Shown here in pieces: positions 3,378 through 19,696 of a stretch of 20,973 bases of DNA. The stretch's first letter is position 1, and each line of letters starts with the position of its first letter. Under the pieces are notes generated by a model. It did not search any database. It was given only the letters and a program-made list of their open reading frames with translations, and had not been told where the DNA came from. The DNA lies in the IMG/VR virus record IMGVR_UViG_2778261696_000009, positions 1 through 20,973 of that record. One strand, given 5' to 3'. Source of the DNA: a virus (taxonomy: Duplodnaviria > Heunggongvirae > Uroviricota > Caudoviricetes). Position numbers and translations under genes: made by a program.

Positions 3378-3626
3378 TCAGTGCAGTACCGGCGCTTTTA
3401 TGTGACGGGCACAGAGTTCATCCATCACAACCAGCCCGAGAAAGGACAGCGACGGCGCGGCCTTCAGGGGGCCGGATTCCATTAAATCTTCCAGCAGGGC
3501 ACAGGCTATCTGACGCCCTTTTTCCTCACCGTGCTGGCGCAGATAAAAGCCCTCCAGCTCAGCGGCGATGGCCGCCTCCAGTGACTCAAGGGTGAGATGC
3601 GGGTAGCGGTGCTGACGTTCGCACAC
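3378..3626 (-). CDS. Small protein in the epsilon position, directly upstream of and co-oriented with alpha; identity unverified
   Basis: Stop lies 14 nt upstream of the alpha ATG and overlaps the alpha RBS, suggesting co-transcription. The start is uncertain: GTG at 3626 has no obvious RBS and internal ATGs exist. Called by position only. Confidence 0.35.
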
Positions 3627-3716
3627 GGTCAGCCAGGCACAGGCGACAGCGCGACGGTAAAGGGCAGCGCGTAAGACGGGCGGTACCGCGATTCACTGAC
3701 GTCAGCCTCCGGCAGT

Positions 3717-3998
3717 ATGAAACGCCCGAAAAGAATGCTTGTTACCGGATATTGTTGTCGGAGATGTAAAGGCCTTGCACTGTCAAGAACATCGCGGCGT
3801 CTGTCTCAGGAAGTCACCGAGCGTTTTTATGTGTGCACGGATCCGGGCTGTGGTCTGGTGTTTAAAACGCTTCAGACCATCAACCGCTTCATTGTCCGCC
3901 CGGTCACGCCGGACGAACTGGCAGAAAGCCTGCATGAAAAACAGGAACTGCCGCCAGTACGCTTAAAAACACAATCATATTCGCTGCGTCTGGAATGA
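3717..3998 (+). CDS. delta: Ogr/Delta-family zinc-finger late-gene transcriptional activator (single-domain)
   Basis: Cys4 pattern CRRC...(x22)...CTDPGC, with SRTSR and RFIVRP segments that align by eye with phage P2 Ogr (C..C...ARTSR...KERY.QC....C...RYIVKP). 93 aa as called; an alternative start is the ATG at 3735. Confidence 0.8.
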   Translation: MKRPKRMLVTGYCCRRCKGLALSRTSRRLSQEVTERFYVCTDPGCGLVFKTLQTINRFIVRPVTPDELAESLHEKQELPPVRLKTQSYSLRLE

Positions 3999-4071: not shown

Positions 4072-4644
4072 ATGGAAAGCACAGCCTTACAGCAGGCCTT
4101 TGACACCTGTCAGAATAACAAAGCAGCATGGCTGCAACGCAAAAATGAGCTGGCAGCGGCCGAACAGGAATATCTGCGGCTTCTGTCAGGAGAAGGCAGA
4201 AACGTCAGCCGCCTGGACGAATTACGCAATATTATCGAAGTCAGAAAATGGCAGGTGAATCAGGCCGCCGGTCGTTATATTCGTTCGCATGAAGCCGTTC
4301 AGCACATCAGCATCCGCGACCGGCTGAATGATTTTATGCAGCAGCACGGCACAGCACTGGCGGCGGCACTGGCACCGGAGCTGATGGGCTACAGTGAGCT
4401 GACGGCCATTGCCCGAAACTGTGCCATACAGCGTGCCACAGATGCCCTGCGTGAAGCCCTTCTGTCCTGGCTTGCGAAGGGGGAAAAAATTAATTATTCC
4501 GCACAGGATAGCGACATTTTAACGACCATCGGATTCAGGCCTGACGCGGCTTCGGTGGATGACAGCCGTGAAAAATTCACCCCTGCGCAGAACATGATTT
4601 TTTCGCGTAAAAGTGCGCAACTGGCATCACGTCAGTCTGTGTAA
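4072..4644 (+). CDS. psu: Psu (polarity suppression protein; capsid decoration / Rho antagonist) of P4-like satellites
   Basis: 190-aa ORF, the length recalled for P4 Psu. Directly downstream of the delta-like gene as in the P4 sid-delta-psu operon (no sid here). GC-rich, helical-looking sequence. Confidence 0.8.
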   Translation: MESTALQQAFDTCQNNKAAWLQRKNELAAAEQEYLRLLSGEGRNVSRLDELRNIIEVRKWQVNQAAGRYIRSHEAVQHISIRDRLNDFMQQHGTALAAALAPELMGYSELTAIARNCAIQRATDALREALLSWLAKGEKINYSAQDSDILTTIGFRPDAASVDDSREKFTPAQNMIFSRKSAQLASRQSV

Positions 4645-4763: not shown

Positions 4764-4808
4764 AGCGTGTCAGTGCAACTGCATTAAAACCGCCCCGCAA
4801 AGCGGGCG

Positions 4809-4827
4809 GGCGTGGCGGGGGGAGCAT
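4809..4827. other. Degenerate cos-like site (P2/P4 cohesive-end-like)
   Basis: GGCGTGGCGGGGGGAGCAT matches the recalled P2/P4 cohesive end GGCGAGGCGGGGAAAGCAC at most positions. It sits where cos lies in P4 (after psu) and coincides with the sharp GC-rich to AT-rich transition. Confidence 0.4.
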
Positions 4828-4902
4828 TGCGCGCTAAGGCTGATATTATAATTTTCTTTAATTCTATTTGGTATTTTGGCTTTATTCGTCAGAAGGAACG
4901 TT

Positions 4903-4937
4903 TAGAAATAGACCACTACAATGGATTGTAGCGGTCT
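4903..4937 (-). terminator. Terminator-like hairpin downstream of the int-RT-partner gene string
   Basis: 12-bp stem AGACCACTACAA / TTGTAGCGGTCT (one mismatch) with loop TGGA at 4910-4937. On the minus strand it is followed by ATTTCTAAA and begins about 10 nt after the partner-gene stop. Confidence 0.45.
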
Positions 4938-4946
4938 GCATGATAT

Positions 4947-5687
4947 CTAGCGTTGCATTTCAGTTACTATGAAATTTTCTTCTGTAATAGAATTCATTAT
5001 CTCAAAGTACAATTCTTCAGGTTGAATAAACGCCAACTCTTTGCAAAGGTTGACAATGGTATCACTATAAGTGATACCCATCCGAGGATTGAAAAGCTCA
5101 AATCTCTTGATGTTTCTTTTGTTTTTTGAGTAAAAGTTTAAAGTGAAATATATTAGCACCTGTCTAAGATCGTAAACACTAAACTTCCTATCTCCTGATT
5201 TTATTTCCACAAGAACATTTGAATAATAAATATCGCCATATGAATTATTTATTACTCCGCATCCATCGAATTGTGGAGACACTTCAATTTGGTTTTCCAT
5301 TCCATATCGAGACAAAATGTTTCTTGCTATTTCCCTTATGGCATTGTACTCAACCATGCTTAAGGGTAGCTTGAAGTTAGAACCGTAAGCGAACCGCTGT
5401 AGATATTCTTTTGTTTTTTCAAAAACAACCTGAAAATCAGCATTATGGAAGATATCATGTGCTGAAAGAATATTTCTGTCTAACGAATCATTCTGTATTG
5501 CCCTATATAAATTAAATGCGCACTCATTAACAAAGACGTTATTTGACCTATTAGCGCAGTCATCTAGAGGAGGATAAACGTCCTCGATGAGACTGCCGTT
5601 AATGATGCGTATGAAATTATTAGCATTTGGAAGCAATTGATTCCAAAATGAAGTGAATTTTCGAGAAAACGTTAATTCAGATATCAT
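4947..5687 (-). CDS. Partner protein of the reverse transcriptase (246 aa, unknown family; possible nuclease-like effector)
   Basis: AT-rich ORF whose ATG overlaps the RT stop as ATGA (5684-5687). No family recognised by eye. Contains GDIYYSNVLVEIKSG, i.e. D-x9-E-x-K in a hydrophobic beta-like context, weakly reminiscent of a PD-(D/E)xK nuclease core. Confidence 0.7.
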   Translation of the reverse strand: MISELTFSRKFTSFWNQLLPNANNFIRIINGSLIEDVYPPLDDCANRSNNVFVNECAFNLYRAIQNDSLDRNILSAHDIFHNADFQVVFEKTKEYLQRFAYGSNFKLPLSMVEYNAIREIARNILSRYGMENQIEVSPQFDGCGVINNSYGDIYYSNVLVEIKSGDRKFSVYDLRQVLIYFTLNFYSKNKRNIKRFELFNPRMGITYSDTIVNLCKELAFIQPEELYFEIMNSITEENFIVTEMQR

Positions 5688-7312
5688 AGCGCATCCTCAA
5701 GATTTCTTGCGGTATGCCTTTTACTTGCCCAATCCCTGTAAATCACCTCTACAAAGTTGAATGTTTTCTTATTATGCTCTCTCCAGTGCCGTCCTTCATC
5801 ACCTAAGATGTAACTGGAAACGATCAATAGTCTTCTCTGCAACGGATGCATTGCAGAGAAATTTTTTTTGATATCAGAAAGCCATGCGTAAGAATTAATT
5901 TTTGCCATTGACTGTGTAACTATGTTCTTGACTAAGATGCTTTCTGGATTGTTATTGTATATTTCACTAAGGATTAGGGTGGATTTTTCTGAATTTTCTT
6001 TTGAGAGCATTCGGGCTACATAGGCTAAGTTGAGCTCAGTACTCAAAATATATGAATCTTGTTTAATTAGTGCAGTTATTTTATCAAGAATAATATCTTT
6101 GGTTTCTGTGCTTAATTTTTGCCAGTTGGAGTTAGCTACTTGAATTATAGTTGTAAATATTGGATATAACTCATGCAAGTTATTAAACATTACTTTGAAA
6201 GCACTACTTATTATTTCATCTGATGTTGCTGAGAATGCCTTTATCAAATGCTTGCTAAAAGATTGGTTAATTTTTGATTTTTGTAACTCACTACTCAGCA
6301 TAGCTAACAAGTCAAAATCTTTTAAAGATTCCTTTATCTCTTCATATTCCTCTATCGCATTTGCTGAGTAAGGATCGAATCTTATAGGAAGACTCATAAA
6401 TTTAGCCTTCATAGGAGATTCTTCATCTTCATCATTACCATGCAACTTAGCTTTAGTTACTGAAAGGAACTCTTCTTTAGTAACAATATTGGTTTTTTGT
6501 TTCTGTAAAGTTAGCCCTTCATTTTCCATCAGTTTTTTACTAAGCAAAGTTAAAATCTTATGAGCATCCTCTCTAGAGTTACAAAAAATAACAAAGTCGT
6601 CGACATAACGCTTATAGTTGATTCTATTCATAGACAATAATTTATCAATAGAATCTAGAGCTAGTTCTGCTAATATTCTAGAGGCAGGACATCCAACTGG
6701 TACTCCATATGATTTTGTTTCACTAAATGTCTGTAGTAATTTCTTGATTTTCCCAGAGTAATCTTTATTGGGGTCGACTCTATCTAACGCATTTTCTAAA
6801 CGGTGGTGATAAATACGCGGATAGAAATCTGCTATATCGCATGTAAGTACATACTTTATTTCATCGTTAGAACATTCAGAGATACTGTCTTCTTGATATT
6901 TTCTCCAAGAGATCTCTTTATCAAAAAGAGAACCATCAGCAAGGTTTGGTTTAAAGCGATATGAATAAACCTGCGTTTTAGTAGATCTATTCCTTTCAAT
7001 ATCATCAGCGATTTTTAAAACTAACCCAAGAAAAAAAGCATTCCAGAATGGATCAATTTGGGTCGCCCACCTGTAACCATAATAACCAATACTTGAAAAG
7101 CTATTAATTATGTTTGGTGGAATCTCGATCCTTTTATTTTCAAAGTCATTAAATGTTTGCATTAATGCAGTTTTTACTTTCTCCTTATCATCTTCAAATA
7201 ACCGACTTTCAAATGGGTAAGGGAAAATATCTGTATCGCCGTGCTTTATAATATTTTCCAATGCAAGCTCAAAGCAATTTTCTAGTTTACTACTATCAAA
7301 CTCGTTACTCAT
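5684..7312 (-). CDS. Reverse transcriptase (Abi/DRT-like defence-associated RT: N-terminal RT domain plus ~250-aa C-terminal helical domain)
   Basis: RT palm motifs in canonical order: LTCDIADFYPRI (motif A-like), GVPVGCPASRILAELAL (motif B-like), YKRYVDDFVIF (motif C, YxDD box). The C-terminal half has no RT motifs and contains GRHWREH (R-x4-H). The ATG overlaps the integrase stop (AATGAGTAA) with AAGGAG 7 nt upstream. AT-rich. Confidence 0.85.
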   Translation of the reverse strand: MSNEFDSSKLENCFELALENIIKHGDTDIFPYPFESRLFEDDKEKVKTALMQTFNDFENKRIEIPPNIINSFSSIGYYGYRWATQIDPFWNAFFLGLVLKIADDIERNRSTKTQVYSYRFKPNLADGSLFDKEISWRKYQEDSISECSNDEIKYVLTCDIADFYPRIYHHRLENALDRVDPNKDYSGKIKKLLQTFSETKSYGVPVGCPASRILAELALDSIDKLLSMNRINYKRYVDDFVIFCNSREDAHKILTLLSKKLMENEGLTLQKQKTNIVTKEEFLSVTKAKLHGNDEDEESPMKAKFMSLPIRFDPYSANAIEEYEEIKESLKDFDLLAMLSSELQKSKINQSFSKHLIKAFSATSDEIISSAFKVMFNNLHELYPIFTTIIQVANSNWQKLSTETKDIILDKITALIKQDSYILSTELNLAYVARMLSKENSEKSTLILSEIYNNNPESILVKNIVTQSMAKINSYAWLSDIKKNFSAMHPLQRRLLIVSSYILGDEGRHWREHNKKTFNFVEVIYRDWASKRHTARNLEDAL

Positions 7313-8489
7313 TCACATTCTCCTTAATAAAAATATAATCTGAATACCACTGCATCATATCACGGCGTTTATCAATATATTGAGCATGATTATACGTACC
7401 TCTAATATTATTCTTATCTATATGAGCAAGCTGTATTTCTATCCAAGCCGAATCATATCCTTTTTCGTGGAGGATAGTAGATAAGGAATGTCGAAATCCA
7501 TGACCAGTAAGTTTTCCACCATAACCAATACGCTTGATAACTTGGTTAATACTCGCCTCACTCATAGGCTTGTTCGGATCGTTCCGCCCCGGAAAAACAT
7601 AACTATACTTCCCTGTCATCATCTTGAGTTCATTTAGCAAATCTAACGCTTGAGTCGACAAAGGCACAAGGTGTGATCTGCGCATTTTCATCCTTTCAGC
7701 AGGAATTTCCCAAATAGCGTTATCTAAATCAAATTCTGACCATAATGCCGCACGTAATTCGATGGTTCTAACACCTGTAATCATGAGCAATTTCGTGGCA
7801 ATCAGGACAAGCCGACTTCCGGTATATCCGTTTAAGGCGCGAAGAAAATCAGGTATCTCATTAGCCTTTAAGAACGGGAAATGATTTGATTGGTGTACAT
7901 TGAGGGCGCTTGAAAGATCCGCAGCAGGGTTAAACTCAGCCCTTCCAGTAGCAATGGCATAGCGGAAAACTTCTGAGCATCGCTGCCGAACTTTGCGCAT
8001 TTTTTCTAATGCACCGCGCTTTTCGATTTTACGCAGCACATTAAGCAGTTCTAGCGGTTTAATCTCTCCCACTGGCCTTGTTCCCACATAAGGAAAAATG
8101 TCGTTCTTAAACGCTTCCATGATGTCTGATGCATATCCCGCCGACCATTTGGTAGACTTCTGTTGATGCCACTCTCTGGCTATCTTTTCGAAGGCGTTCT
8201 CTGACTCTGTTTGCAGAGCCAGCTTTTGCTCTTTTCGAACCTCACTAGGGTTCTTTCCTTCTGCCACAAGTTTTCGAGCTTCATCACGACGGGAACGAGC
8301 ATCAGCAAGAGTGATCGTTGGGTAAACACCAAGCGAGATCATTTTGGGTTTACCGGCATAGCGATAACGAAATCGCCAGCTTTTACTTCCATTTGGCTCT
8401 ACAAGTAAAGACAACCCTTGCCCATCCCCAAGTGTATAGGCTTTAGCTTCAGGTTTAGCACGGCGAATCTGCATATCATTTAGGGGCAT
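7305..8489 (-). CDS. int: P4-type tyrosine integrase (site-specific recombinase)
   Basis: 394 aa. N-terminal arm-binding-like region, then a tyrosine-recombinase catalytic region with R (LMITGVRTIELRA), HGFRHSLST (H-x-x-R) and a C-terminal RGTYNHAQY tyrosine region. Located at the element edge next to the candidate attR. Confidence 0.9.
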   Translation of the reverse strand: MPLNDMQIRRAKPEAKAYTLGDGQGLSLLVEPNGSKSWRFRYRYAGKPKMISLGVYPTITLADARSRRDEARKLVAEGKNPSEVRKEQKLALQTESENAFEKIAREWHQQKSTKWSAGYASDIMEAFKNDIFPYVGTRPVGEIKPLELLNVLRKIEKRGALEKMRKVRQRCSEVFRYAIATGRAEFNPAADLSSALNVHQSNHFPFLKANEIPDFLRALNGYTGSRLVLIATKLLMITGVRTIELRAALWSEFDLDNAIWEIPAERMKMRRSHLVPLSTQALDLLNELKMMTGKYSYVFPGRNDPNKPMSEASINQVIKRIGYGGKLTGHGFRHSLSTILHEKGYDSAWIEIQLAHIDKNNIRGTYNHAQYIDKRRDMMQWYSDYIFIKENVNE

Positions 8490-8541
8490 GTGTATAGAAT
8501 TCCAAAATCGAACAGGAACATATACATAATCCTATACACAT
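8488..8541. promoter_or_regulatory. Int-proximal CTATACACAT motifs (one inverted copy overlapping the int start, one direct copy), candidate arm-type sites and int promoter region
   Basis: ATGTGTATAG at 8488-8497 is the reverse complement of CTATACACAT; a direct copy is at 8532-8541 and a related ACATATACATA at 8519-8529. Same motif as at 613-633. Confidence 0.35.
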
Positions 8542-8652
8542 TTAGTACTGGATTCTACTGGAAAGTTATGGACTAATACGAACAGTAAAAACAAAAAATC
8601 TTTTATAAAACAGTGCGGTTATGGATAAATACGGATGTTTGAAGAAGTGGAG

Positions 8653-8670
8653 ATGGTGCCGATAATAGGA
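8653..8670. repeat. Candidate attR core: right copy of the 17/18-nt direct repeat
   Basis: ATGGTGCCGATAATAGGA at 8653-8670 versus ATGGTGCGATAATAGGA at 537-553. It lies ~165 bp beyond the int start. Confidence 0.4.
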
Positions 8671-8727
8671 GTAAAACACTCGATTAATCTCGTGTTAATG
8701 CCATCACCTACGACCATTACTAATTGA

Positions 8728-10092
8728 TTGAATCTTATAGAAAAATCATCATTTTCTATGCGTCACAATCAATTTTCACATTACAAACGCTCCGACACTT
8801 TAGCCGGAGATTTTATGAGATACAAGCCTAACCAATACTTAATCTGTGATTCTTACGGTAACTACTATTTAAGGATCACGCTGCCTGTGTATATGCAGCC
8901 CTTTTTTGAAGGAAAAAGGACGTTTGTCAGAAGTCTACACACAAGTAATCTTCGTGTTGCACGTAGAAAGCGTGATCAGATTGCAGATGAATACCATTGC
9001 TTACGGGAGAGTGTTGCCCCTGTAAACAGCACAATAGAAAACACGCTGGAACTGTTACGCAGTAAGGCTAAATACGCCAAAACAGCTACCAGAGTGCAAG
9101 ATACAGCGTCTTCGTGTCCGTCATTGCTTAAAATTCTTGAAATCTACCTGACAATTAACAGCACGAAGAAGAAGCCAGCCACTTTAGCTAAGGCAAGAAA
9201 AGCGGTAGAGATGTTTCTCTCCTACCGTAAAAAGCCTGATATTGCATTGCAAGATGTAAGCCGCACCACTGTTACAGGCTGGATTGAACACATGCAAAAA
9301 ACTCTTTCACAACAATCAATTGCAAATTATATCAGTCCAATGGCCCAGCTATGGGAATTAGCTTCATCACGTTACCACGATGCGCCAGAAAGGGCGCTCT
9401 CCCCCTGGCGAGGGCATAGGCTTGATGTGGCACAAAGTAGAGAGAGCTACGAGGCATTTTCTAACAAAGAGCTATTGCAGGTGTTGCAAGTATTTTCCGG
9501 TAATTCAGCAGAAAACAAAGAAATGACGGCTTTGTGTCTTATCGGTTTATATACAGGTATGCGGATCAATGAGATAGCAAGTCTCACAATAGACGATGTG
9601 AAAGAGATCGAAGGTGTGCTGTGTTTTGAAATCACACAGGGAAAGACGAAAGCTGCGGCACGTGTTGTGCCTGTGCATAACCTTATCACTCCGTTGGTGT
9701 TGTCGCTGCGTGAAAAGCCTCACAATGGCTTTTTGTTCTATCACGCCAGCATTACAGAACGTGCTGACGGTAAACGCTCTACGTGGCATACACAACGATT
9801 TACAAGAGCTAAACGAAAGGCTTTAGGGGAAAAGGGAACAGAAAGGAAAGTGTTTCATTCTCTGAGACACGGAGTAGCACAGCTTCTTGATCGAAATCAA
9901 ATTCCAGAAGACAGGATCGCCCTTCTCCTGGGCCATACACGCGGCAATACAGAAACATTCCGCACATATAGCAAAAATGCAGCTTCTCCAATAGAGCTTA
10001 AAAAATATATTGAGCTTTTACGCTACCCTGAAATAGAGAAAGGCTTATCAATCAATAAAAAATCAAATTTAAGGCGTAAAACAACGCTATAG
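8728..10092 (+). CDS. Second tyrosine recombinase / phage-type integrase (likely true start at ATG 8815)
   Basis: C-terminal catalytic signatures: YTGMRINEIASL (R), HSLRHGVAQLL (H-x-x-R), LLGHTRG and FRTYSK (Tyr). The in-frame ATG at 8815 has a GGAG RBS 5 nt upstream. Divergent from the P4-type int. Confidence 0.8.
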   Translation: MNLIEKSSFSMRHNQFSHYKRSDTLAGDFMRYKPNQYLICDSYGNYYLRITLPVYMQPFFEGKRTFVRSLHTSNLRVARRKRDQIADEYHCLRESVAPVNSTIENTLELLRSKAKYAKTATRVQDTASSCPSLLKILEIYLTINSTKKKPATLAKARKAVEMFLSYRKKPDIALQDVSRTTVTGWIEHMQKTLSQQSIANYISPMAQLWELASSRYHDAPERALSPWRGHRLDVAQSRESYEAFSNKELLQVLQVFSGNSAENKEMTALCLIGLYTGMRINEIASLTIDDVKEIEGVLCFEITQGKTKAAARVVPVHNLITPLVLSLREKPHNGFLFYHASITERADGKRSTWHTQRFTRAKRKALGEKGTERKVFHSLRHGVAQLLDRNQIPEDRIALLLGHTRGNTETFRTYSKNAASPIELKKYIELLRYPEIEKGLSINKKSNLRRKTTL

Positions 10093-10172: not shown

Positions 10173-10850
10173 CTATTGTTTAAATACTGGCGTTACAACG
10201 TCTTGCCCTGGGCTTTTTTGATTTTTCTGTTCTGTTGTATTTACCTGCATTTTAACCTGGCCTCCTACAGATTTATTTGGTGCTGTTTTTACCGCAATTG
10301 CGCTTGTAGTTGCTTTAGAGACAAGACGGATTTGCTCAAAATCAAGAGTAAACAATAGGCTTTCGCTTGCTTCTTCTTCGTAAGACATGCCAACTAACAC
10401 AACGTTGTCATAATTTTTTAACTCAGTGACAAGTAGGAAAGGTTGGCGACTGTCCATCAACTGATTTAGGTATTCAAGCATAAGCATACGTCGATTGCCG
10501 TTAATTCCAGCATTCTTAATCATATCAGGATTGAGCTTCAATACGGTTTCAGAGATACGCCCTTGTAATGTGAACTTGTTATTCCGTATTTGAACATGAT
10601 CACTAACTTCTGATCCTGATTCGACGGCATAGCTTGTAACGTCCGCATTTCTGCTAACTTTCGTCGATTCCACGCTATCAAATGATAATGCCTGGTAGTC
10701 ATTGTAAGCAGCATTTGCACCACTGCCGAGATTAGAGGTAATGATCGCAAAGCCGTTACCCCCTTTGGTTGTTCTACCGTTGCTATCGTTGCTTGTGCTG
10801 TTGATTTTCGCCTCAGTCGGGCGACCAATGGTTAACGGACCCATTGCCAT
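10173..10850 (-). CDS. Hypothetical protein (225 aa), last gene of the structural-looking operon
   Basis: ORF with AAGGA RBS upstream of the ATG at 10850; Ser/Thr/Asn/Gly-rich N-terminus. Follows the 613-aa gene on the same strand. Function not recognisable by eye. Confidence 0.5.
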   Translation of the reverse strand: MAMGPLTIGRPTEAKINSTSNDSNGRTTKGGNGFAIITSNLGSGANAAYNDYQALSFDSVESTKVSRNADVTSYAVESGSEVSDHVQIRNNKFTLQGRISETVLKLNPDMIKNAGINGNRRMLMLEYLNQLMDSRQPFLLVTELKNYDNVVLVGMSYEEEASESLLFTLDFEQIRLVSKATTSAIAVKTAPNKSVGGQVKMQVNTTEQKNQKSPGQDVVTPVFKQ

Positions 10851-10897
10851 AATTTGTAATCCTTATTTAAGGGGGCTAAACAGCCCCACAGTGATGA

Positions 10898-12739
10898 TTA
10901 ATAGGTTGACCCGCCTGACATAACACCCAGCGTTAATAGCTTGCTAAACTCAGCGGAGGATGCCTTTGATTTGAAGTCGATAAATTCGCTCAATCGTCCG
11001 GTGTCTGATTCGATAGTTAGCGGCACTTCTGCATTTACTTGTAATTCTGGATTGAAGTTAATAACAGGTGCAAAGGTGTAAGAAGGAGCCTTGAAAGCTT
11101 GTTGTGCTGCACTCTGTTTCAGATTTGCAATGTTTTGTCCTTCGAGACTGTATTGATTTACAGCCTGCGCCCCACCTACCGTTTCTTCTGGCATAAACCA
11201 GCTTTTAATAGTGTTAACCAGGGAATTGCTGTTATCTGGCTTAGTTGTTCCGGTGCCAGCGCCTTTATATTGATCAGGAGTGAGATTAGAAAGATTCTGC
11301 TTCATTCCTTCGTTAGATAGTGGCGGTGCATCCCCTAAATTCTTCTGAATAGCTTCCGTCTTCTCGTCGTTTTTCATCAGCCAGTTGATTGTTTTCATTA
11401 CGGCGTTAACCAATCCGCCGATAGCCTCGCCTAATTTGGTAAACATTGGCAGCATTGCAACCATGCTCTTTTTAAACTCTTCAATCACTTTCGGATCAAG
11501 AGATTTCATAAAGCCATCAACAAAGGCGATCCCTTGTGAGTCAGAAAGCCCACTAAGTGCATTATTCAGTTCACGGAATTTAATAACGCTTTCCTGTTGT
11601 GCCTGTGTTACCCAGCGCCCTGATTCTCGTTGTTCTCGTGCTGATTGTTCCACTTCTTTAGCGGAGCGTGTCCAGTATTTAGAGGTGAGCATCAAATCAT
11701 CAGCCAGATCTTCCAGACGACTACCGATTTGTGCATCTGAATAGCCTTTCTTCACCATTCCCTGAACTGCTTTACTAACCAGACCAGCCGGATTATCAGC
11801 AAAGTCTTTTAGATCCTTTTTAGTTAAGAATCCTTCATTCATTAAAGTATTGATGCCGCTATCGCCGCCCTTCCATTCACCTTTGCCTGTTTTTTTATCG
11901 ACTACATATTCAGCCTCATCATAGCTTTTGGTTGCACGCTCACGCACATCTTTCATCTGATCGAGATACTTACGTTTACCTTGATCCCCCATCATTGAAT
12001 CAACGCCGTTTTTGTAGGCCCATTGCTCAATATTGTTCATCTGGTTAACGTCTACACCGCCCAGCTTCGCACGGCTATACAATTCACCCAGCGTTTCAGC
12101 ATTCGCAAAGCTGTTAGTAACAAATTCAGAGGCTTTGCTCATAGCCATATACGTAGCGCCAGCGCCTAAGCCACCCAGCATAACAGCCGCAGCACCGCCG
12201 CCAATACTCCCGCTACCCTTAACAGGTGCATAGGCTTTAGCGTGAGCGTTACGATTGCCATTAATCTTACGTTGTTGCTGTTGTAGGCGTTTCATTTGGC
12301 TATTCATACGTGCCAGACTAATAGCTCCTCTTTCATATTGGAGGGCAATTTCTCTAGCCTGTGCAATAGCTTTATATTGTTCCGCTACAGAAAGGCGGTG
12401 CAATGCACTAATGCTTGATCCAACGTCTAACAGTTTTAAGTCTGCCTTCTCTTTGCGTGCTGCCAGGGCTTTTTGTTCTCTTGCAACTACACGTTGAGCG
12501 GCTAATTGTGCTTTAGCATTGGCTTTATCTGCCTGTGCTTGCTTTTTAGCAATATCGTCTACGTCTTTTTTTGCTTTAGAAGTTGATTGTTTATGTGTCT
12601 TAACACGCAATTCTATATCTTTCACCGCCGCCATTTGTTTACGAAGTTTTTCTACTTCTGCTTTTGCTTTCTCTAATGATGGTCGATCAACCTGGAAGGT
12701 GACAACGTTTGATAAGCGGCTGACGTTAAGTTCTAACAT
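10898..12739 (-). CDS. Large coiled-coil / glycine-rich protein (613 aa), tape-measure-like or scaffold-like
   Basis: N-terminal ~150 aa strongly charged Lys/Ala/Gln-rich heptad-like sequence, then a Gly-rich hydrophobic segment (GSGSIGGGAAAVMLGGLGAGATYMAMS). This architecture is typical of phage tape-measure or internal virion proteins; the assignment is tentative. Confidence 0.6.
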   Translation of the reverse strand: MLELNVSRLSNVVTFQVDRPSLEKAKAEVEKLRKQMAAVKDIELRVKTHKQSTSKAKKDVDDIAKKQAQADKANAKAQLAAQRVVAREQKALAARKEKADLKLLDVGSSISALHRLSVAEQYKAIAQAREIALQYERGAISLARMNSQMKRLQQQQRKINGNRNAHAKAYAPVKGSGSIGGGAAAVMLGGLGAGATYMAMSKASEFVTNSFANAETLGELYSRAKLGGVDVNQMNNIEQWAYKNGVDSMMGDQGKRKYLDQMKDVRERATKSYDEAEYVVDKKTGKGEWKGGDSGINTLMNEGFLTKKDLKDFADNPAGLVSKAVQGMVKKGYSDAQIGSRLEDLADDLMLTSKYWTRSAKEVEQSAREQRESGRWVTQAQQESVIKFRELNNALSGLSDSQGIAFVDGFMKSLDPKVIEEFKKSMVAMLPMFTKLGEAIGGLVNAVMKTINWLMKNDEKTEAIQKNLGDAPPLSNEGMKQNLSNLTPDQYKGAGTGTTKPDNSNSLVNTIKSWFMPEETVGGAQAVNQYSLEGQNIANLKQSAAQQAFKAPSYTFAPVINFNPELQVNAEVPLTIESDTGRLSEFIDFKSKASSAEFSKLLTLGVMSGGSTY

Positions 12740-12773
12740 GCTAATTGTTTCCCTGTATTATGATTGTTGTTTA

Positions 12774-12971
12774 TTATTGTTTTTTAGAGCAATAGTATTG
12801 AATTGCTTCGAAAGTGCTGCACCCAGTCTGAAAGACACGCTGGCGCACATTATTTGCATCAATTTCTAAAAGGCGGCAAAGCGCCGATGTGTTTATAACT
12901 GATTCCTCGCTAATAGCTGCCAGTTCTTTTACAGCCTTAAGAATAAAGGATTGTGAGTTTTCTGTATTCAT
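12774..12971 (-). CDS. Small hypothetical protein (65 aa)
   Basis: ORF between the capsid-like and 613-aa genes on the same strand; weak RBS; no recognisable motif. Confidence 0.35.
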   Translation of the reverse strand: MNTENSQSFILKAVKELAAISEESVINTSALCRLLEIDANNVRQRVFQTGCSTFEAIQYYCSKKQ

Positions 12972-13122
12972 TGGTTTTCTCTCACATATATATTTTTATT
13001 TGGGTTTGTAGACAGTAGAAAAACAAAAAGGGCAAAGAGATTCGTTACTGTATTTGCGCCTACAGGTTAGTTAATCCCTTTACCCTTATTGCCCCGATGG
13101 GGAATCGTCTATTAACGCTTTA

Positions 13123-14154
13123 TTACGCAGCAGATCCGAAGATGATAGCTTGCGGAATGTTGTTTACTGGCAGATAAGATGTCTCAGTAACCACAGATGG
13201 GAATTGGAATTCATCCTTGATTAGATATTGGTGATGCAACACGGCATCTTGACCTAACTCAGCATGACGCACACCAACGCCGCTATGAAGCTGGTAACAC
13301 TGTGCCGCTTTATCCATTACCGGAACAATTGCGAAACCGTTCTCTCCGATGTGAGCAACAATCTCAGGAAACATTGACACATCAATAACAGTGATCCCAC
13401 CAATCTGGAAAGAGTCATAGGCTGGGTTAGAATCAACCATACGGGTAAACAGGGCCGTAGCACTCGCATCGCCTGCATATTTCACCATGTCACTGATCAG
13501 CGGGTTAGATGACAAACCATCAGCAGCAGTGCCAGCAGCAAAGATAATTACACCAGTTCGCTTTGCAGCAAGACCAGACCCCAGCTTTTCACTCTGTAAG
13601 CGCACCGCTTTACGAATAGCAAGGAACGGGTTAACAGTAGTCGATGCAAAGTCGATAGCGGGTACCGTGGTTTTAGCCTGACCGTCGAGGAAGTCGAGAT
13701 CACCTTGTCCGGCATATTCAGATTCAACTTTCAGGCCCAGCAGCGCGGTAATCAGATCCACTTCAACACGGTTTGCGTGTGAACGGTAATGAGCCTCAGA
13801 GAAATCATTAACCGCTACCAGCATAGCATCAGAACGGTTTGGATATTGGCGGCTGTATTGTTCCAGGTCACGAGAAGTAACAGCGTTAATACTGCCGACG
13901 TGTTTCATCTGGAAAAGTTTGTTTGACCATTCCTGACGTTTAGAGGCGTTCCAGTCGCTTTGAGCGTAAGGCGAGGTTTCCCCAGCTACCTGCACAAACT
14001 GATCAATCAGGTCGGTAAGAAGAATGCTGTTTTCTGTATGATATTGCACATCGAACAGATCGAGATTAGTAATCAGGGTATTAAGTGCATTCTCATAAGC
14101 AAATGGAGTTACTACCGCAGTATTAACGCCAAAATATGTTGATAAATCATTCAT
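13123..14154 (-). CDS. Putative major capsid-like protein (343 aa); identity tentative
   Basis: Strong RBS (AAGGAAA, 8-nt spacer). Size and position immediately after a ~127-aa decoration-like gene mirror the lambda-type D-E (decoration, major capsid) arrangement. No direct sequence match could be verified by eye. Confidence 0.55.
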   Translation of the reverse strand: MNDLSTYFGVNTAVVTPFAYENALNTLITNLDLFDVQYHTENSILLTDLIDQFVQVAGETSPYAQSDWNASKRQEWSNKLFQMKHVGSINAVTSRDLEQYSRQYPNRSDAMLVAVNDFSEAHYRSHANRVEVDLITALLGLKVESEYAGQGDLDFLDGQAKTTVPAIDFASTTVNPFLAIRKAVRLQSEKLGSGLAAKRTGVIIFAAGTAADGLSSNPLISDMVKYAGDASATALFTRMVDSNPAYDSFQIGGITVIDVSMFPEIVAHIGENGFAIVPVMDKAAQCYQLHSGVGVRHAELGQDAVLHHQYLIKDEFQFPSVVTETSYLPVNNIPQAIIFGSAA

Positions 14155-14168
14155 TATTATTTTCCTTG

Positions 14169-14552
14169 TTAAGTCGTAGGGATCGCAAGTTCTTCATAAC
14201 CAGCAATTACAAAGCCGAGAGATTGCAGTTTTGCAATAACACTTGCCTTTTCCATGCTGTTAAATTCAATCCCATCTTCAGCCAGAATAACGAAAGTAGG
14301 ATGTGCAACCACTACGCTTTCCTGTCCTTCATAAGCCGGTTCAACTACTACGTGAGCAATATCAGATGCGGTTGTTGCTTTGGTGCCATCGGCTTTCAGC
14401 AAAGCCCCGACAATAAGATCGTCAGTGAGAGGTGAAGCCAGTTTGACGAGGCGATCTTGCAGCACTGGATCAGCAGCGTAAGCTACTACCTTACAGCGTG
14501 AACGGGAGTTATCCGCATTCACTGCTTTTAATTTTCCATATGGGTTAGCCAT
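14169..14552 (-). CDS. Putative head-decoration-like / small structural protein (127 aa); identity tentative
   Basis: RBS AAAGGAAAA embedded in the end of the upstream small gene (tight coupling). Ala/Val/Gly-rich beta-looking sequence; size and position are consistent with a capsid decoration protein. Confidence 0.5.
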   Translation of the reverse strand: MANPYGKLKAVNADNSRSRCKVVAYAADPVLQDRLVKLASPLTDDLIVGALLKADGTKATTASDIAHVVVEPAYEGQESVVVAHPTFVILAEDGIEFNSMEKASVIAKLQSLGFVIAGYEELAIPTT

Positions 14553-14556
14553 AAGA

Positions 14557-14754
14557 TTATTTTCCTTTCAGTTGTTTAATTTTAGATTTAAGGGCATCAG
14601 CAAGACTAACCGCATCAGCCGATTTAAATAATTGAGCAGTGGTAGAACGAAGACTTTCGGGAGTAACTCCCAACAGTGCGGCAACCTTAATGAGGTTTTC
14701 ATCACTAACAATCATCGTTTCCCCGTCTTTGCTGATAATCATTTCTTGTTTCAT
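14557..14754 (-). CDS. Small protein (66 aa from ATG 14754; the track calls a TTG start at 14796), first gene of the structural-looking operon
   Basis: ATG at 14754 is preceded by AGGAAC. Its stop overlaps the RBS of the next gene. Confidence 0.45.
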   Translation of the reverse strand: MKQEMIISKDGETMIVSDENLIKVAALLGVTPESLRSTTAQLFKSADAVSLADALKSKIKQLKGK

Positions 14755-15738
14755 AAATAATGTTCCTGTTAGTGCCAGACAAATAAAAAGCCCCAATGCC
14801 GTAAGAGGTTAATTCTGACCAGCAAAGGGGCTTTAACGTGCGGGCAATTACATAATTGATAAGTTAAACTATAAGAGGATTAAACATATCAGCAAATACA
14901 CTTTTTAAATATACTTGATGATATGCTTAAAGGGTGAATAGATACTCCTGAAAACATGCTCTTAGGAAAACATGCGGAATCAATCAGGAATATCTATTCG
15001 GGGCGCGGTGGCCAACCGCTATCTTTCATGGTGTGGATGCACCAGTCAGATTTTAAGGAATCACTATTCCAATCTACTCACAGATTAAATTTTTAATAAT
15101 GATTAACTACACCAACAGTAATCTACCGTTTCAGAAAATCGTTTTTACAACCAAAGCTTATAGATCCGCATTCTATAAAACCCGTTTTGCTATCAATATT
15201 TCCAAAGTTTATTGCACCATTCTTAGCTAAACTCTCTCTGCTTGCGGCTAACGCTATGCAGATGATTGTTTTTGACAACAACTTAATAGATTATTCTGTT
15301 ACTAACTTCTGTCATTAAATAATAGTTTAATGATGTTAGTAAATAGTTATAAAATATAACTATCAGTGTAAGGCTCTTTAATGTTTTCTGACAAAATAAG
15401 GAGCTTTAGGATAAGCATAGATGAAAAATAATAGCGGGAAGGGCAAGGAGATAACACCTACCCGCTTTTATCAAAATTAAGCACAATGCCTAACAACATT
15501 CATCAACACAACGTAGAAACAATCAACAATCAAAGAGGGAGTTATGATTATTCTAAAACTTCTTGAGAGATGGAAGGTAATATTTGTTAGAGGTTAATGC
15601 CACTCAACCTTTGAGGCTATCACCTTCCATATGCAGGGATTTATGACAGTAGAAGGATTAACACCAACTAAAATCTTTTTATCTACCCCTAAAATTATTA
15701 TATAACAAAATCATTATAAATGCAAATAATTTTCATTA

Positions 15739-16038
15739 TCATTTAGAGAAAATAGCACTTTTTGCTAAATCATCTACTAATTGCTGAATCTCTTCACTTG
15801 CAACCTTTAACGTGGTGGCGATGTCTGTGATGATTTGATTACACTGTTTTGCATCGTCCTCTGATACGCTCACCAGAGAGATAAAATCGTCAAGGCTTAC
15901 ATTCACCTTCATTAAGCTAATAACGCATTGAGAGAGCGTGTAATCGCATAAATCTGAATAGGCTTGATTTATTCTTGTTTGTAGTGAGATAGTCAGATCT
16001 AAAAGTTGTTCCATTGCATTGCTAATATCTTCTTCCAT
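15739..16038 (-). CDS. Small hypothetical acidic protein (99 aa)
   Basis: ATG overlaps the stop of the upstream gene (TAATG); AAGGAG RBS 9 nt upstream. Last gene of a minus-strand string of small ORFs. Confidence 0.5.
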   Translation of the reverse strand: MEEDISNAMEQLLDLTISLQTRINQAYSDLCDYTLSQCVISLMKVNVSLDDFISLVSVSEDDAKQCNQIITDIATTLKVASEEIQQLVDDLAKSAIFSK

Positions 16039-16240
16039 TATGCGTATTCTCCTTGTAATGCATCATTAATCATATTCAATACGATGTTAAAAGGTGTCTT
16101 GAGCGTCAGCACTTCATCACGGTAACGCTCTAATGCTTCGTAGTCTTCTGTTTCTTTTGCCAGCCGAATTAACTCTGCATAGTTTTTTGCATCAGACAGG
16201 ATCATCTGAAATAATTGTGTTTCTTGAATATAGCCAATCA
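16038..16240 (-). CDS. Small hypothetical protein (67 aa from ATG 16240; the track extends to 16283)
   Basis: ATG at 16240 has an AGGA-containing RBS (AAAAAAGGAAAAATAATG); the upstream ATG at 16283 has none. Stop overlaps the next start. Confidence 0.5.
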
Positions 16241-16298
16241 TTATTTTTCCTTTTTTGAATATTTTCATTGGGCGCTTATACATACACCCATCATTTTA

Positions 16299-16682
16299 TT
16301 AGTTAGAACGTTTGTTAGAAGCTAATGTATCTTCTAAATGAGCCATCAGATCGACTTCCGATGCACCACCTACACAATTATTGAAAGCGTTAAATCCCAA
16401 AAAATGATGATAGGAGCTAAACCCTAAAAGCTGCCAACGTTTCAGAGTGCCATCAGAAATGATAGTTTGTTTTCTTGTTCTTGGGCGAAAGTAAACGCCT
16501 GGCATTGATTGGATTATTTCTAATTCTTCATCACTTAATTCAGGGGATTCTGTTTCAAGAATAAAGATTATCTCTTCCCCTGGAATTTCGTTATTGGTGT
16601 GTGTCGGTGGACGTTGTCTTTTTGAATTGAAATTACTGTTTTTTTCAATACGTTTTAAGTTGTTCTTTTTCTTTCTTCCCAT
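16299..16682 (-). CDS. Hypothetical protein (127 aa) with a highly basic N-terminus
   Basis: RBS AGAGGGA upstream of the ATG. N-terminus MGRKKKNNLKRIEKNSNFNSKRQRP is Lys/Arg-rich, suggesting a nucleic-acid-binding tail. Confidence 0.5.
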   Translation of the reverse strand: MGRKKKNNLKRIEKNSNFNSKRQRPPTHTNNEIPGEEIIFILETESPELSDEELEIIQSMPGVYFRPRTRKQTIISDGTLKRWQLLGFSSYHHFLGFNAFNNCVGGASEVDLMAHLEDTLASNKRSN

Positions 16683-16779
16683 TTTTCCCTCTTTTTATGT
16701 GGATTATAAAAACTGGACGCCATTGTTACGATGAATATCGCCATAAATGCATTTGCCATATGTATTGCCCGATCTGTTG

Positions 16780-17049
16780 TTATTGATTGTTTGTGAGAAA
16801 CAATTCAAAATCTTTGTTTAATTTCAAAAGACGAAATGTAGTGCTGTTAATCCCTTCATAATCCAGCACACCGAACGATGTAAAATGATTTAACCAATGA
16901 TTTACGTGTTGTGCGCTGTAGCCGCCTAAACTACAAAAGCTAACCACTGTCGGTGGTGAAAACTCTATGTCCAAAATAGCTTTTAAAATGTTGTATCCGC
17001 TTTCAGTTATTTCAATAGTTTTGTTTCCTATAGTGATGTTATAAGTCAT
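16780..17049 (-). CDS. Small hypothetical protein (89 aa)
   Basis: AAGGAG RBS 7 nt upstream of the ATG; immediately downstream of the winged-helix gene. Confidence 0.5.
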   Translation of the reverse strand: MTYNITIGNKTIEITESGYNILKAILDIEFSPPTVVSFCSLGGYSAQHVNHWLNHFTSFGVLDYEGINSTTFRLLKLNKDFELFLTNNQ

Positions 17050-17058
17050 TTATTCTCC

Positions 17059-17727
17059 TTAGAAGGGTAGTGAATCATATATTGTGCTCTCACTTTTGAG
17101 ATCAATTATCAAAGAGTCAAAATCATTTTCACAAAGATAGATATTCTTTGAATCTAATGCTCGTTTTACAAAATCTTCTGTTTCTTCGTGCGGTGGTTTC
17201 TTCTTATCAAGGGAAAGAAGCCAAGTAAAAATTTCGGGCCGCTCAGGGAACTCTGGCTCTTGTGTTTCTTCTTCAACGATGATTTCGGAAACATTCAATA
17301 TTTCATTAGATTCGTCTTCTTTCTCAGAAGGATCAGGTAGTGATGACTCTCCAGGGGGAGTAATATGTGCATCTGTGAATGGTAATGCTTTATAGAGTGA
17401 TGTTTGCCCGTCCCGAGCCTCTACAGAAAGAACTCCCATATCAACAAACATATTTATAATATTGCGAACCTGGCGATCACTAACCATTCCAATATTAGAT
17501 AATGTTTTTTGAGTGGCGTAACATTCTTGCCCTTGTTCATTGAATCCAGCTATATAGCTATAGATTTCAACGGCTGGCAGTGTAGCGGTGTATTCATTAC
17601 CTGACGGTGAGAACCACTTTTTAAACATCTTCAACCACTGCTCAACGACTACATATTTTTGTTTACCATCTTTCTGATTTAGACATTTGGCTTTCGCTTC
17701 GGCAATTGTTTTGATATTTTTGATCAT
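17059..17727 (-). CDS. Winged-helix DNA-binding protein, replication-initiator / replisome-organiser-like (222 aa)
   Basis: AAGGAGG RBS 6 nt upstream of the ATG. Central segment QKTLSNIGMVSDRQVRNIINMFVDMGVLSVEARDG looks like a winged HTH of Rep/DnaD-type initiators, followed by an acidic C-terminal tail. Confidence 0.6.
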   Translation of the reverse strand: MIKNIKTIAEAKAKCLNQKDGKQKYVVVEQWLKMFKKWFSPSGNEYTATLPAVEIYSYIAGFNEQGQECYATQKTLSNIGMVSDRQVRNIINMFVDMGVLSVEARDGQTSLYKALPFTDAHITPPGESSLPDPSEKEDESNEILNVSEIIVEEETQEPEFPERPEIFTWLLSLDKKKPPHEETEDFVKRALDSKNIYLCENDFDSLIIDLKSESTIYDSLPF

Positions 17728-17851
17728 TTAGTTCCTCCTTTGTAAGGACTGTAATTAGTAATTCATTAACAAGTTTTGGAATTGATTTCCCTTCTGCCTT
17801 TGCACGATTTAACAACGCGTTATAAGTTGCAGAATCAAAATTAATATTCAT
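17663..17851 (-). CDS. Ribbon-helix-helix (CopG/Arc/ParG-like) DNA-binding protein
   Basis: N-terminal SATYNALLNRAKAEGKSIPKLVNELL fits a beta-strand plus two helices RHH signature. GGAGAAGGAG RBS upstream. The 3' 65 nt overlap the start of the downstream gene. Confidence 0.55.
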   Translation of the reverse strand: MNINFDSATYNALLNRAKAEGKSIPKLVNELLITVLTKEELNDQKYQNNCRSESQMSKSERW

Positions 17852-17874
17852 TTGGTTTTCTCCTTCTCCTGTTA

Positions 17875-18057
17875 TTATTCTTTCTCTGCTCCTGCCTTAC
17901 GCAGTTCATCAATAATTTTTAGTGCATCGTCAAAACATTTTTCACGCTCTGGATAACCACAGCGTCGCGCTGTGTTCCTATTCATTCTTACCCTAAAGCG
18001 GTTGATCTCACCACGTTTCCAGGCTTCAACTACATCTTGAGAAGTGAAATACTTCAC
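17875..18057 (-). CDS. Small protein (60 aa), first gene of the regulatory operon (GTG start)
   Basis: GGAGG RBS 7 nt upstream of the GTG at 18057; candidate sigma70 promoter ~115 nt upstream. Confidence 0.45.
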   Translation of the reverse strand: MKYFTSQDVVEAWKRGEINRFRVRMNRNTARRCGYPEREKCFDDALKIIDELRKAGAEKE

Positions 18058-18180
18058 TAATTAACCTCCTATTCTATTTGGTTAAAAGAAAAAGACACCT
18101 TGCAAGCCTCTTGGGCTTCAAAGTGCGGTGCATTGGTTTAATTATTTAGAGGATAGGAATGTTTTCCTGTCCCTAATATT

Positions 18181-19689: not shown

Positions 19690-19696
19690 AAGGAAA

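What the first reader, a model, noticed from the sequence alone, without database searches (positions are those of the whole stretch)
4903..8489. Integrase, RT and partner form one tightly coupled minus-strand gene string
The int stop and RT start overlap (AATGAGTAA, with AAGGAG inside the int 3' end), the RT stop and partner start overlap (ATGA), and the only terminator-like hairpin is after the partner (4910-4937). The cargo therefore looks co-transcribed with, or read through from, the integrase gene. That would tie defence expression to the prophage integrase promoter.
Basis: seen in the sequence. Interest (0 to 1): 0.6.

Follow-up and report, generated by a model that had tools for sequence, protein, structure and literature searches.

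The report
Integrase-coupled DRT8 defence cassette, P4-like satellite
The three genes are the integrase of a decayed P4-like phage satellite followed, with no gap, by a known anti-phage system (DRT8: a reverse transcriptase plus a nuclease) that has no promoter space of its own and so must be transcribed through the integrase gene. The system is already catalogued, but this tight docking behind the integrase recurs in many related satellites.

Summary
On the minus strand, int (7305-8489), the RT (5684-7312) and its partner (4947-5687) overlap by 8 and 4 nt. AAGGAG lies inside the int tail. A strong hairpin (4910-4937, -17.3 kcal/mol) follows the partner.

The cargo is DRT type 8: a UG7 reverse transcriptase plus a PD-(D/E)XK nuclease. 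These exact proteins are the second most frequent system in the published catalogue of the P4 satellite hotspot.

Five related loci represent four different upstream contexts. In all of them, similarity between cassettes starts at the Shine-Dalgarno site. The DRT8 unit therefore seems to move without a promoter or a flanking ncRNA gene. Here the last six int codons and the int stop are written in the cassette's leader.

Cargo that abuts int is common but not universal:
- this thrW-type int lineage: 15 of 17 co-oriented cargo types;
- a second lineage: 14 of 23;
- the canonical P4 lineage: 0 of 21.

No conserved internal promoter was found. Transcription entering from upstream of int is therefore the most likely driver, but no transcript data exist. 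P4-type int promoters are also known to be self-repressed. The system itself is already known, so interest is moderate.

The parts
7305..8489 (-). int: P4-type tyrosine integrase of the thrW-associated lineage. The last six codons (K-E-N-V-N-E) and the stop are encoded by the DRT8 cassette leader and the first RT codons.
   Evidence: Pfam hits Arm-DNA-bind_3, Phage_int_M and Phage_integrase. The protein aligns with other alleles up to ...MMQWYSD.I, after which the tail differs with each cargo. The catalytic RGTYNH motif is at codon 366.
8490..8653 (-). Region upstream of int, the presumed int promoter and Int-binding region. The proximal ~100 nt are almost invariant among alleles.
   Evidence: Alignment of 7 distinct upstream sequences. 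The first 20 int codons have the lowest synonymous diversity of the gene. No promoter was called here at the scan thresholds.
8654..8672 (-). att core: a 19-nt copy of the 3' end of tRNA-Thr (thrW), marking the left end of the P4-like element.
   Evidence: In most genomes the tRNA-Thr gene itself lies here.
7320..7325 (-). Shine-Dalgarno site AAGGAG of the RT, lying inside the int reading frame. It marks the 5' limit of the mobile DRT8 cassette.
   Evidence: Similarity to the cassette copies L006, L008 and L009 begins here.
7305..7312 (-). 8-nt overlap of the RT start codon with the int stop codon (ATGAGTAA).
5684..7312 (-). Drt8 reverse transcriptase (UG7 group, class 1 UG/Abi). The YVDD motif is at residue 236 (window 6596-6607).
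   Evidence: PADLOC Drt8 E = 4.9e-166. Pfam RVT_1. YVDD located. The nearest solved relatives are UG15/DRT4 and AbiK reverse transcriptases.
5684..5687 (-). ATGA overlap of the RT stop with the partner start.
   Evidence: The same 4-nt overlap of the two ORFs (1934-1937) is seen in a Bacteroidota homologue, L010.
4947..5687 (-). RT-associated PD-(D/E)XK nuclease, the DRT8 effector. Candidate motif D...E-I-K, with the EIK at residue 161.
   Evidence: PADLOC RTasPDDEXK E = 5.5e-69. Motif located. There is no Pfam hit and no sequence match to a solved structure.
4903..4937 (-). Intrinsic terminator-like hairpin (stem 4937-4910) plus a U-rich tract. It marks the 3' limit of the cassette.
   Evidence: Fold at -17.3 kcal/mol, z = -6.2. 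The hairpin is kept in L006 and L007 with substitutions that preserve the stem, and L009 has a different hairpin at the same place.
4790..4830 (-). cos-flanking DNA with a second minus-strand GC hairpin followed by TTTT (4809-4790), and the cos-like sequence GGCGTGGCGGGGGGAGCAT. This is the far edge of the hotspot.
   Evidence: Terminator scan. The region up to 4808 is about 99% identical to the right end of P4. The cos 19-mer differs from P4's at 4 positions, so a search allowing 3 mismatches found nothing.
4072..4644 (+). psu, the conserved satellite gene that bounds the hotspot on the other side. It is convergent with the int-DRT8 string.
   Evidence: Pfam Psu E = 1.3e-88.

Best explanation
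The string is the integrase of a degraded P4-like satellite at the thrW site, fused to a promoterless DRT type 8 defence cassette (UG7 reverse transcriptase plus PD-(D/E)XK nuclease).

The cassette, as it moves between genomes, runs only from its own Shine-Dalgarno site (7325-7320) to its hairpin terminator (4937-4910). Here it is joined so closely to int that the int reading frame runs into the cassette leader and stops inside the third RT codon.

Because no non-coding DNA lies between the genes, RNA polymerase has to arrive through int. It most likely starts in the strongly conserved region just upstream of int. That would give one int-RT-nuclease mRNA ending at the hairpin, with the cos-side hairpin as a backstop.

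The RT is translated from its own strong Shine-Dalgarno site. Ribosomes finishing int 5 nt downstream may help. The nuclease is coupled to the RT by the ATGA overlap.

Shown: the gene geometry, the cassette limits, the terminator, the absence of an internal terminator, and the recurrence of this docking across unrelated cargo.

Inferred: which promoter is used, the existence of the tricistronic transcript, and any translational coupling.

Once expressed, the cargo is expected to act as published for DRT8. It protects against phage T5 and needs both the RT and the nuclease active sites. Its molecular mechanism is still unknown.
For: - Overlaps and the Shine-Dalgarno site inside int.
- Cargo identity and its literature record.
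- Cassette limits: the 84%-identical E. coli copy matches window 4907-7325 only. Among five loci representing four upstream contexts, similarity starts at AAGGAG and ends at the hairpin.
- No minus-strand terminator between the int start and the partner stop. The hairpin after the partner is strong and conserved. In representative loci of 15 cargo types, no hairpin of -15 kcal/mol or stronger with a T-run lies inside the int-cargo block, and in 7 of them such a hairpin lies 39-184 nt after it.
- Lineage pattern: 17 of 20 cargo types are co-oriented with int and 15 of 17 are docked within -38 to +22 nt, with the Shine-Dalgarno site in or overlapping the int tail. In a second lineage 14 of 23 are docked. 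In canonical P4 the figure is 0 of 21.
- No conserved internal promoter. Synonymous diversity is highest in the last 80 int codons. The only perfect -10 in the int 3' end is the TATAAT made by the catalytic Tyr-Asn codons. It drifts freely to TATAAC, TACAAT and TACAAC even in docked alleles. Promoter scans find nothing above background there.
- The ~100 nt upstream of int are nearly invariant among alleles.
Against: - There are no transcript data of any kind.
- No convincing sigma-70 promoter is predicted upstream of int either.
- P4-type int promoters are reported to be repressed by Int and Vis. Related island int promoters are almost silent, with rare bright cells (PMC7286903). That would give very low or patchy defence expression.
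- The int 3' third is AT-rich (33% GC), a composition in which weak intragenic starts are common (general knowledge).
- The RT has a strong independent Shine-Dalgarno site, so translational coupling is not required.
- Start codons in the survey were chosen by an ORF and Shine-Dalgarno heuristic, not by a gene finder.
Confidence: 0.6

Rival explanations
1. A promoter inside the AT-rich 3' third of int (roughly 7330-7750) is the main driver of the cassette. In that case defence expression is independent of the int promoter and of Int self-repression. The tight junction merely places the cassette behind that internal start.
For: - Weak sigma-70-like candidates exist on the minus strand: ATAAGA-17-TATAAT (7417-7389), TTGTGC-18-TAGATT (7669-7640) and TTGATT-17-GAAATT (7732-7704). 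The 7669-7640 site recurs at the same position in many alleles.
- For co-oriented systems from this hotspot, Rousset et al. cloned ~100-130 nt of the int 3' end as the 'native promoter', and one such construct was active. That construct also carried a 62-nt spacer.
- A constitutive internal start would avoid the problem of Int self-repression.
Against: - All candidates score about 7 bits, no better than 15 other sites in 3.2 kb. None passes the scan in the last 150 nt of int.
- Synonymous sites are least constrained in this part of int.
- The perfect -10 is lost in many docked alleles.
Confidence: 0.3
2. The tight junction has no role in expression. It is a by-product of how cargo is swapped, or of pressure to keep a satellite of about 11 kb small. 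In this decayed element the cassette may be barely expressed.
For: - The element is degraded: no sid, a truncated delta and no immunity region.
- The int tail changes length by simple stop-codon mutations without apparent cost (L002 against L018).
- The cassette is nearly clonal in E. coli, with 106 of 107 copies at 99% identity or more. Conservation therefore says little about selection.
Against: - Canonical P4-lineage satellites face the same size limit, yet none of 21 co-oriented cargo types is docked.
- In this lineage 85% of cargo types point the same way as int, against 47% in the other two lineages (p = 0.006 against the P4 lineage).
- Each docked cargo keeps a Shine-Dalgarno site at the right distance.
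- This system is the second most frequent in the hotspot catalogue.
Confidence: 0.1
3. In ordinary single-occupancy lysogens the string is driven largely by read-through from the thrW tRNA promoter. The tRNA gene lies directly upstream in the same orientation, and integration displaces its own terminator.
For: tRNA-Thr, int and cargo are co-oriented and adjacent in L002, L004 and L006. No terminator-like site was called between the att core and the int start.
Against: - In this window a second element with a divergently oriented integrase separates thrW from int.
- The canonical P4 lineage has the same tRNA-int orientation but no docking.
Confidence: 0.1

Closest known systems
DRT type 8 (UG7 reverse transcriptase + PD-(D/E)XK nuclease; Mestre et al. 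2022, PMC9226505)
   Same: Both proteins match the PADLOC models (E = 4.9e-166 and 5.5e-69). The order is RT then nuclease, with an ATGA overlap. The published system protects against T5 and needs both active sites.
   Different: Nothing differs at the protein level. The source of the tested system and the promoter fragment used could not be checked, because the supplement is not held. The mechanism was still unresolved in 2026 reviews.
Defence hotspot of P4-like satellites between int and psu/cos (Rousset et al. 2022, PMC9122126)
   Same: The position is the same. The very accessions WP_000064054 + WP_000622599 are listed there as system rank 2 (RVT_1, count column 294), noted as UG7 with a nuclease-like second protein.
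   Different: That paper says systems occur in either orientation and were cloned with native promoters. It does not describe cargo docked on the int stop, nor the difference between int lineages found here.
Phage P4 int-cII arrangement (NC_001609)
   Same: cII lies downstream of int on the same strand, followed by an annotated putative terminator.
   Different: P4 has a 66-nt gap rather than an overlap, a different int lineage (leuX type), and the remaining cargo (gop, beta) on the other strand.
Integron expression platform (promoter Pc in or next to intI serving promoterless cassettes). From general knowledge, not tested here.
   Same: Variable cassettes without promoters sit at a fixed site next to a tyrosine recombinase gene and depend on signals supplied by that gene region.
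   Different: Here the cargo lies downstream of int and is co-directional with it. The integrase carries a P4-type arm-binding domain and serves integration of the whole element at a tRNA gene. There is no evidence of cassette-level site-specific recombination.
Phage 'morons' (autonomous promoter-gene-terminator units). From general knowledge.
   Same: Accessory, AT-rich cargo (33% GC against 46-53% for the flanking satellite genes) with its own terminator.
   Different: No promoter of its own travels with the unit.

Membership tests
DRT type 8 | Reverse transcriptase of the UG7 group | tested here: met
   PADLOC Drt8 model, E = 4.9e-166 over residues 11-532. The next best model, UG21, scores 1e-37.
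DRT type 8 | Intact RT catalytic motif (YxDD) | tested here: met
   YVDD at residue 236. Pfam RVT_1 E = 1.2e-18.
DRT type 8 | PD-(D/E)XK nuclease gene directly downstream of the RT | tested here: met
   PADLOC RTasPDDEXK E = 5.5e-69 over the full length. A D...EIK motif is present. The fold was not checked by structure prediction.
DRT type 8 | Protects against phage, dependent on the RT and nuclease active sites | not testable with these tools
   Reported for a UG7 system in PMC9226505. Not measured for this copy.
P4-like satellite | P4-type integrase next to a tRNA att site | tested here: met
   Pfam domains. The att core is the 3' end of tRNA-Thr.
P4-like satellite | psu, delta and sid helper-exploitation genes | tested here: not met
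   psu is intact. delta is truncated and annotated as a pseudogene. No sid ORF lies between 3626 and 3717. The element is a degraded member.
P4-like satellite | alpha primase and cos site | tested here: met
   A 777-aa primase, PHROG 2249 E = 9e-241. The cos flank is about 99% identical to P4. The cos 19-mer has 4 mismatches.
Single transcription unit (operon) int-RT-nuclease | Same strand, with overlapping or abutting ORFs | tested here: met
   Overlaps of 8 nt and 4 nt.
Single transcription unit (operon) int-RT-nuclease | No terminator inside the unit and a terminator after the last gene | tested here: met
Single transcription unit (operon) int-RT-nuclease | No internal promoter feeding the distal genes | tested here: inconclusive
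   Only background-level sigma-70-like sites were found, and no conserved candidate. Weak starts cannot be excluded.
Single transcription unit (operon) int-RT-nuclease | One mRNA spanning all three genes | not testable with these tools
   No RNA data are available.
Integron (considered only as an analogy) | IntI-type integrase with attI and attC cassette sites | tested here: not met
   Int has the P4-type Arm-DNA-bind_3 and Phage_int_M domains, and its att site is a tRNA 3' end. attC-like sites were not searched for.

The most novel reading that the evidence does not exclude
In at least two lineages of P4-like satellites, the 3' end of int serves as a fixed docking and expression site for promoterless defence cassettes, in an integron-like logic. 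The level of immunity would then be set by the self-regulated int promoter and would rise when the satellite is induced. Cassettes such as DRT8 would circulate as bare units running from Shine-Dalgarno site to terminator. Canonical P4 and its close relatives, whose cargo carries its own promoters, would be the exception.
Probability: 0.35. Interest if true: 0.6.

Novelty: already known. Interest (0 to 1): 0.35.

Why it matters
The locus itself adds nothing new. It is DRT8 in the P4-like hotspot, and these exact proteins are already catalogued.

Three practical consequences follow from the organisation:
- **Cloning and screens.** Cargo of this kind has no promoter of its own. Clones made 'with the native promoter' may carry little or none of the real one. 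Negative results in defence screens could then be expression artefacts.
- **Regulation.** If the int promoter drives the cassette, immunity is tied to Int self-repression and to satellite induction. This is directly testable.
- **DRT8 mechanism.** The DRT8 unit travels without flanking non-coding DNA. This argues that, unlike DRT2, DRT3 and DRT9, it needs no separately encoded ncRNA, which narrows the search for its still unknown mechanism.

The contrast between int lineages also gives a simple sequence rule for telling int-dependent cargo from self-sufficient cargo.

Tried and rejected
- **Catalytic-tyrosine TATAAT as a built-in cargo promoter.** Rejected as a conserved device. Among 31 alleles it reads TATAAT 15 times, TATAAC 10, TACAAT 2 and TACAAC 2, and 2 rows fell out of register. 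There is no link to cargo orientation, and its -35 is poor.
- **Constraint on synonymous sites in the int 3' end.** None was found. Diversity is highest there.
- **A structured RNA in or beside the cassette.** Rfam gave only a chance miRNA hit at E = 0.93. The perfect 10-bp palindrome plus T8 at 5833-5860 is not kept in L006 or L009. The flanks share nothing beyond the Shine-Dalgarno site and the hairpin.
- **An RNA fold hiding the RT ribosome-binding site, which would force true coupling.** The predicted stem is not better than shuffles, z = -1.1.
- **The 316-nt spacer of the L006 copy as the cassette's 'native' promoter.** It has no strong site and is unrelated to the Brenneria spacer.
- **Cargo shared between the thrW and P4 lineages, to compare leaders.** No first-gene cargo is shared.
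- **Literature.** Ghisotti 1990 on P4 transcription is not held. The Mestre 2022 supplement is not held. No paper mentioning int-cargo co-transcription in P4-like elements was found.
- **cos 19-mer search.** It failed at up to 3 mismatches. Alignment to P4 settled the position instead.
Full report
**What is there.** The window is E. coli DNA from the thrW-proA region and is 100% identical to strain EC12. Three ORFs lie head to tail on the minus strand: int 7305-8489, a 542-aa protein at 5684-7312, and a 246-aa protein at 4947-5687.

- The sequence shows the int stop and RT start overlap (ATGAGTAA).
- AAGGAG lies 7 nt before the RT ATG and inside the int frame.
- The RT and its partner share an ATGA overlap.
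- A 12-bp hairpin follows the partner at 4937-4910. It folds at -17.3 kcal/mol, with z = -6.2 against shuffles.
- No minus-strand terminator-like site lies inside the three genes.
- A second GC hairpin with TTTT lies at 4809-4790, in cos-flanking DNA that is about 99% identical to P4.

**Identity of the parts.** Int has the three domains of P4-type integrases. The middle protein matches the PADLOC Drt8 model (UG7 group) at E = 4.9e-166 and carries YVDD. The last protein matches the RT-associated PD-(D/E)XK model at E = 5.5e-69.

On the far side lie a P4-like cos flank, psu, a truncated delta and the alpha primase. There is no sid and no immunity region, so the element is a decayed P4-like satellite. 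Its left end is a 19-nt copy of the tRNA-Thr 3' end at 8654-8672. In most genomes thrW itself sits there. Here a second integrase-bearing phage remnant lies between the satellite and thrW.

**What is already known.** The accessions of the two cargo proteins (WP_000064054 and WP_000622599) appear in Rousset et al. 2022, Table S1. There they are the second-ranked system of the P4 hotspot and are noted as UG7 with a nuclease-like partner.

Mestre et al. 2022 named UG7 plus the PD-(D/E)XK protein DRT type 8. They showed protection against T5 that needs both active sites. Reviews from 2026 still list its mechanism as unknown. The cargo and its location are therefore known.

**Limits of the mobile unit.** In E. 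coli the cassette is nearly clonal: 106 of 107 genomes carry it at 99% identity or more, always behind int. One 84%-identical copy (L006) sits in another thrW satellite, 316 nt from the int stop. Its similarity to the window spans only 4907-7325, from the Shine-Dalgarno site to the hairpin.

Three more copies were found:
- a Citrobacter copy with the same junction as the window (L007);
- a C. portucalensis copy behind a different integrase (41% identical) with a 2-nt gap (L009);
- a degraded Brenneria copy behind a 185-nt spacer (L008).

When aligned, the five sequences share nothing upstream of AAGGAG, and each has a hairpin right after the partner gene. The DRT8 unit thus travels without a promoter and without flanking non-coding RNA genes.

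In the window, the last six int codons (K-E-N-V-N-E) and the int stop are encoded by the cassette's leader and first codons. In L009 the int tail likewise reads through the cassette's AGGAG.

**Is docking on the int stop general?** I collected loci for three int lineages from IMG/VR, E. coli and other genomes. For each locus I took the first ORF of at least 90 aa after int, and grouped cargo by that protein.

| Int lineage | Cargo types | Co-oriented with int | Docked on the int stop |
|---|---|---|---|
| thrW type (this window; 83% aa identity or more) | 20 | 17 | 15 of 17 (-38 to +22 nt) |
| L009 type | 49 | 23 | 14 of 23 (25 nt or less) |
| Canonical P4 (leuX type) | 45 | 21 | 0 of 21 (closest 30, 31 and 43 nt) |

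- In the thrW lineage the Shine-Dalgarno site (AAGGA, AAGGAG or GGAG) sits in or across the last int codons.
- In the thrW lineage the int protein is conserved up to ...WYS..I, and a tail of 3-15 residues then differs with each cargo.
- The same cargo can have different junctions. Simple stop-codon changes lengthen or shorten the int tail.
- P4's own cII lies 66 nt from int.
- The thrW lineage differs from the P4 lineage at p = 9e-9 for docking and p = 0.006 for orientation.

**Where does transcription start?** There is no non-coding DNA between the genes, so the promoter must lie in or upstream of int. I looked for a promoter embedded in int.

- The consensus scan finds none on the minus strand in the last 150 nt.
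- A position-weight scan gives only background-level sites.
- Synonymous diversity is highest, not lowest, in the last 80 codons.
- The one perfect -10, made by the catalytic Tyr-Asn codons, drifts freely among alleles, including docked ones.

By contrast, the ~100 nt upstream of int are almost invariant, and the first 20 codons are the least variable. This fits a regulatory region. In representative loci, hairpins of -15 kcal/mol or stronger with a T-run appear only after the last co-oriented cargo gene, never inside the int-cargo block.

The simplest reading is an int-RT-nuclease transcript starting upstream of int.

Several points count against certainty:
- No good sigma-70 site is predicted upstream of int either.
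- No RNA data exist.
- P4-type int promoters are reported to be repressed by Int and Vis, and promoters of related islands are nearly silent.
- Weak starts in the AT-rich int 3' third (33% GC) therefore remain a serious rival.

**Translation.** The RT has a strong Shine-Dalgarno site at ideal spacing, and the same site is used where the cassette is not docked. Coupling to int is therefore possible but not needed. The predicted local RNA fold is not significant. The 4-nt RT-partner overlap is also seen in a Bacteroidota homologue.

**Verdict.** Co-transcription through int is forced by the geometry and backed by a lineage-wide pattern, but the dependence on the int promoter itself is inferred.

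The most useful by-products are:
- the promoterless limits of the DRT8 unit, from Shine-Dalgarno site to terminator;
- the contrast between int lineages in how cargo is attached.

I found neither described in the papers available to me.

Noticed in passing
window 7312-7339 (+ strand): A near-consensus sigma-70-like site, TTCACA-16-TATAAT (11 of 12 matches), points antisense into int. It is built from the DRT8 leader (-35) and the int D-Y-I codons (-10). In the Citrobacter copy the -10 reads TATAAC. It could make an antisense RNA against the int 3' end.
   Followed up: partly
window 8654-10092 and 10173-20254: thrW is occupied in tandem. A 19-nt tRNA-Thr 3'-end copy at 8654-8672 separates the P4-like element from a second element. 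That element carries its own integrase (8815-10092, +), tail-like genes (10173-12739) and a DNA invertase (19697-20254). The two integrase genes are divergent across a 325-nt spacer.
   Followed up: partly
window 3378-3998: The P4-like satellite is degraded. Only ~90 nt separate the DUF5375 gene from a delta fragment lacking its N-terminus. sid and the immunity region are absent. Some other genomes with the same cassette have also lost psu (hits H22-H27).
   Followed up: partly
E. coli genomes H7, H28-H30 and H37: In several genomes an IS element (IS3, IS1 or IS21) is annotated under the match alongside integrase fragments, which suggests int is interrupted while the RT and partner stay intact. 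These are natural tests of whether the cassette needs the int promoter.
   Followed up: no
L006 8660-8723 (E. coli strain 700462): Where DRT8 lies 316 nt from int, the docking position is still used. An ORF of roughly 60 codons, read by eye, starts 12 nt after the int stop, with AAGGGG in the int tail. It may be a remnant of earlier cargo.
   Followed up: no
window 5833-5860 (+ strand, inside the RT gene): A perfect 10-bp palindrome followed by T8, flagged as a terminator-like site antisense to the RT. It is not conserved in the 84% and 78% copies, so it is probably chance.
   Followed up: yes
loci L067-L087 (IMG/VR): A distant integrase family (27-29% identity) also shows a downstream gene at -4 or +7 nt from the int stop in many loci. 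The nature of these elements was not examined.
   Followed up: no
thrW-lineage loci against P4-lineage loci: No first-gene cargo protein is shared between the thrW-type and canonical P4-type int lineages in the sampled loci. This hints that the two lineages draw on different cargo pools.
   Followed up: partly
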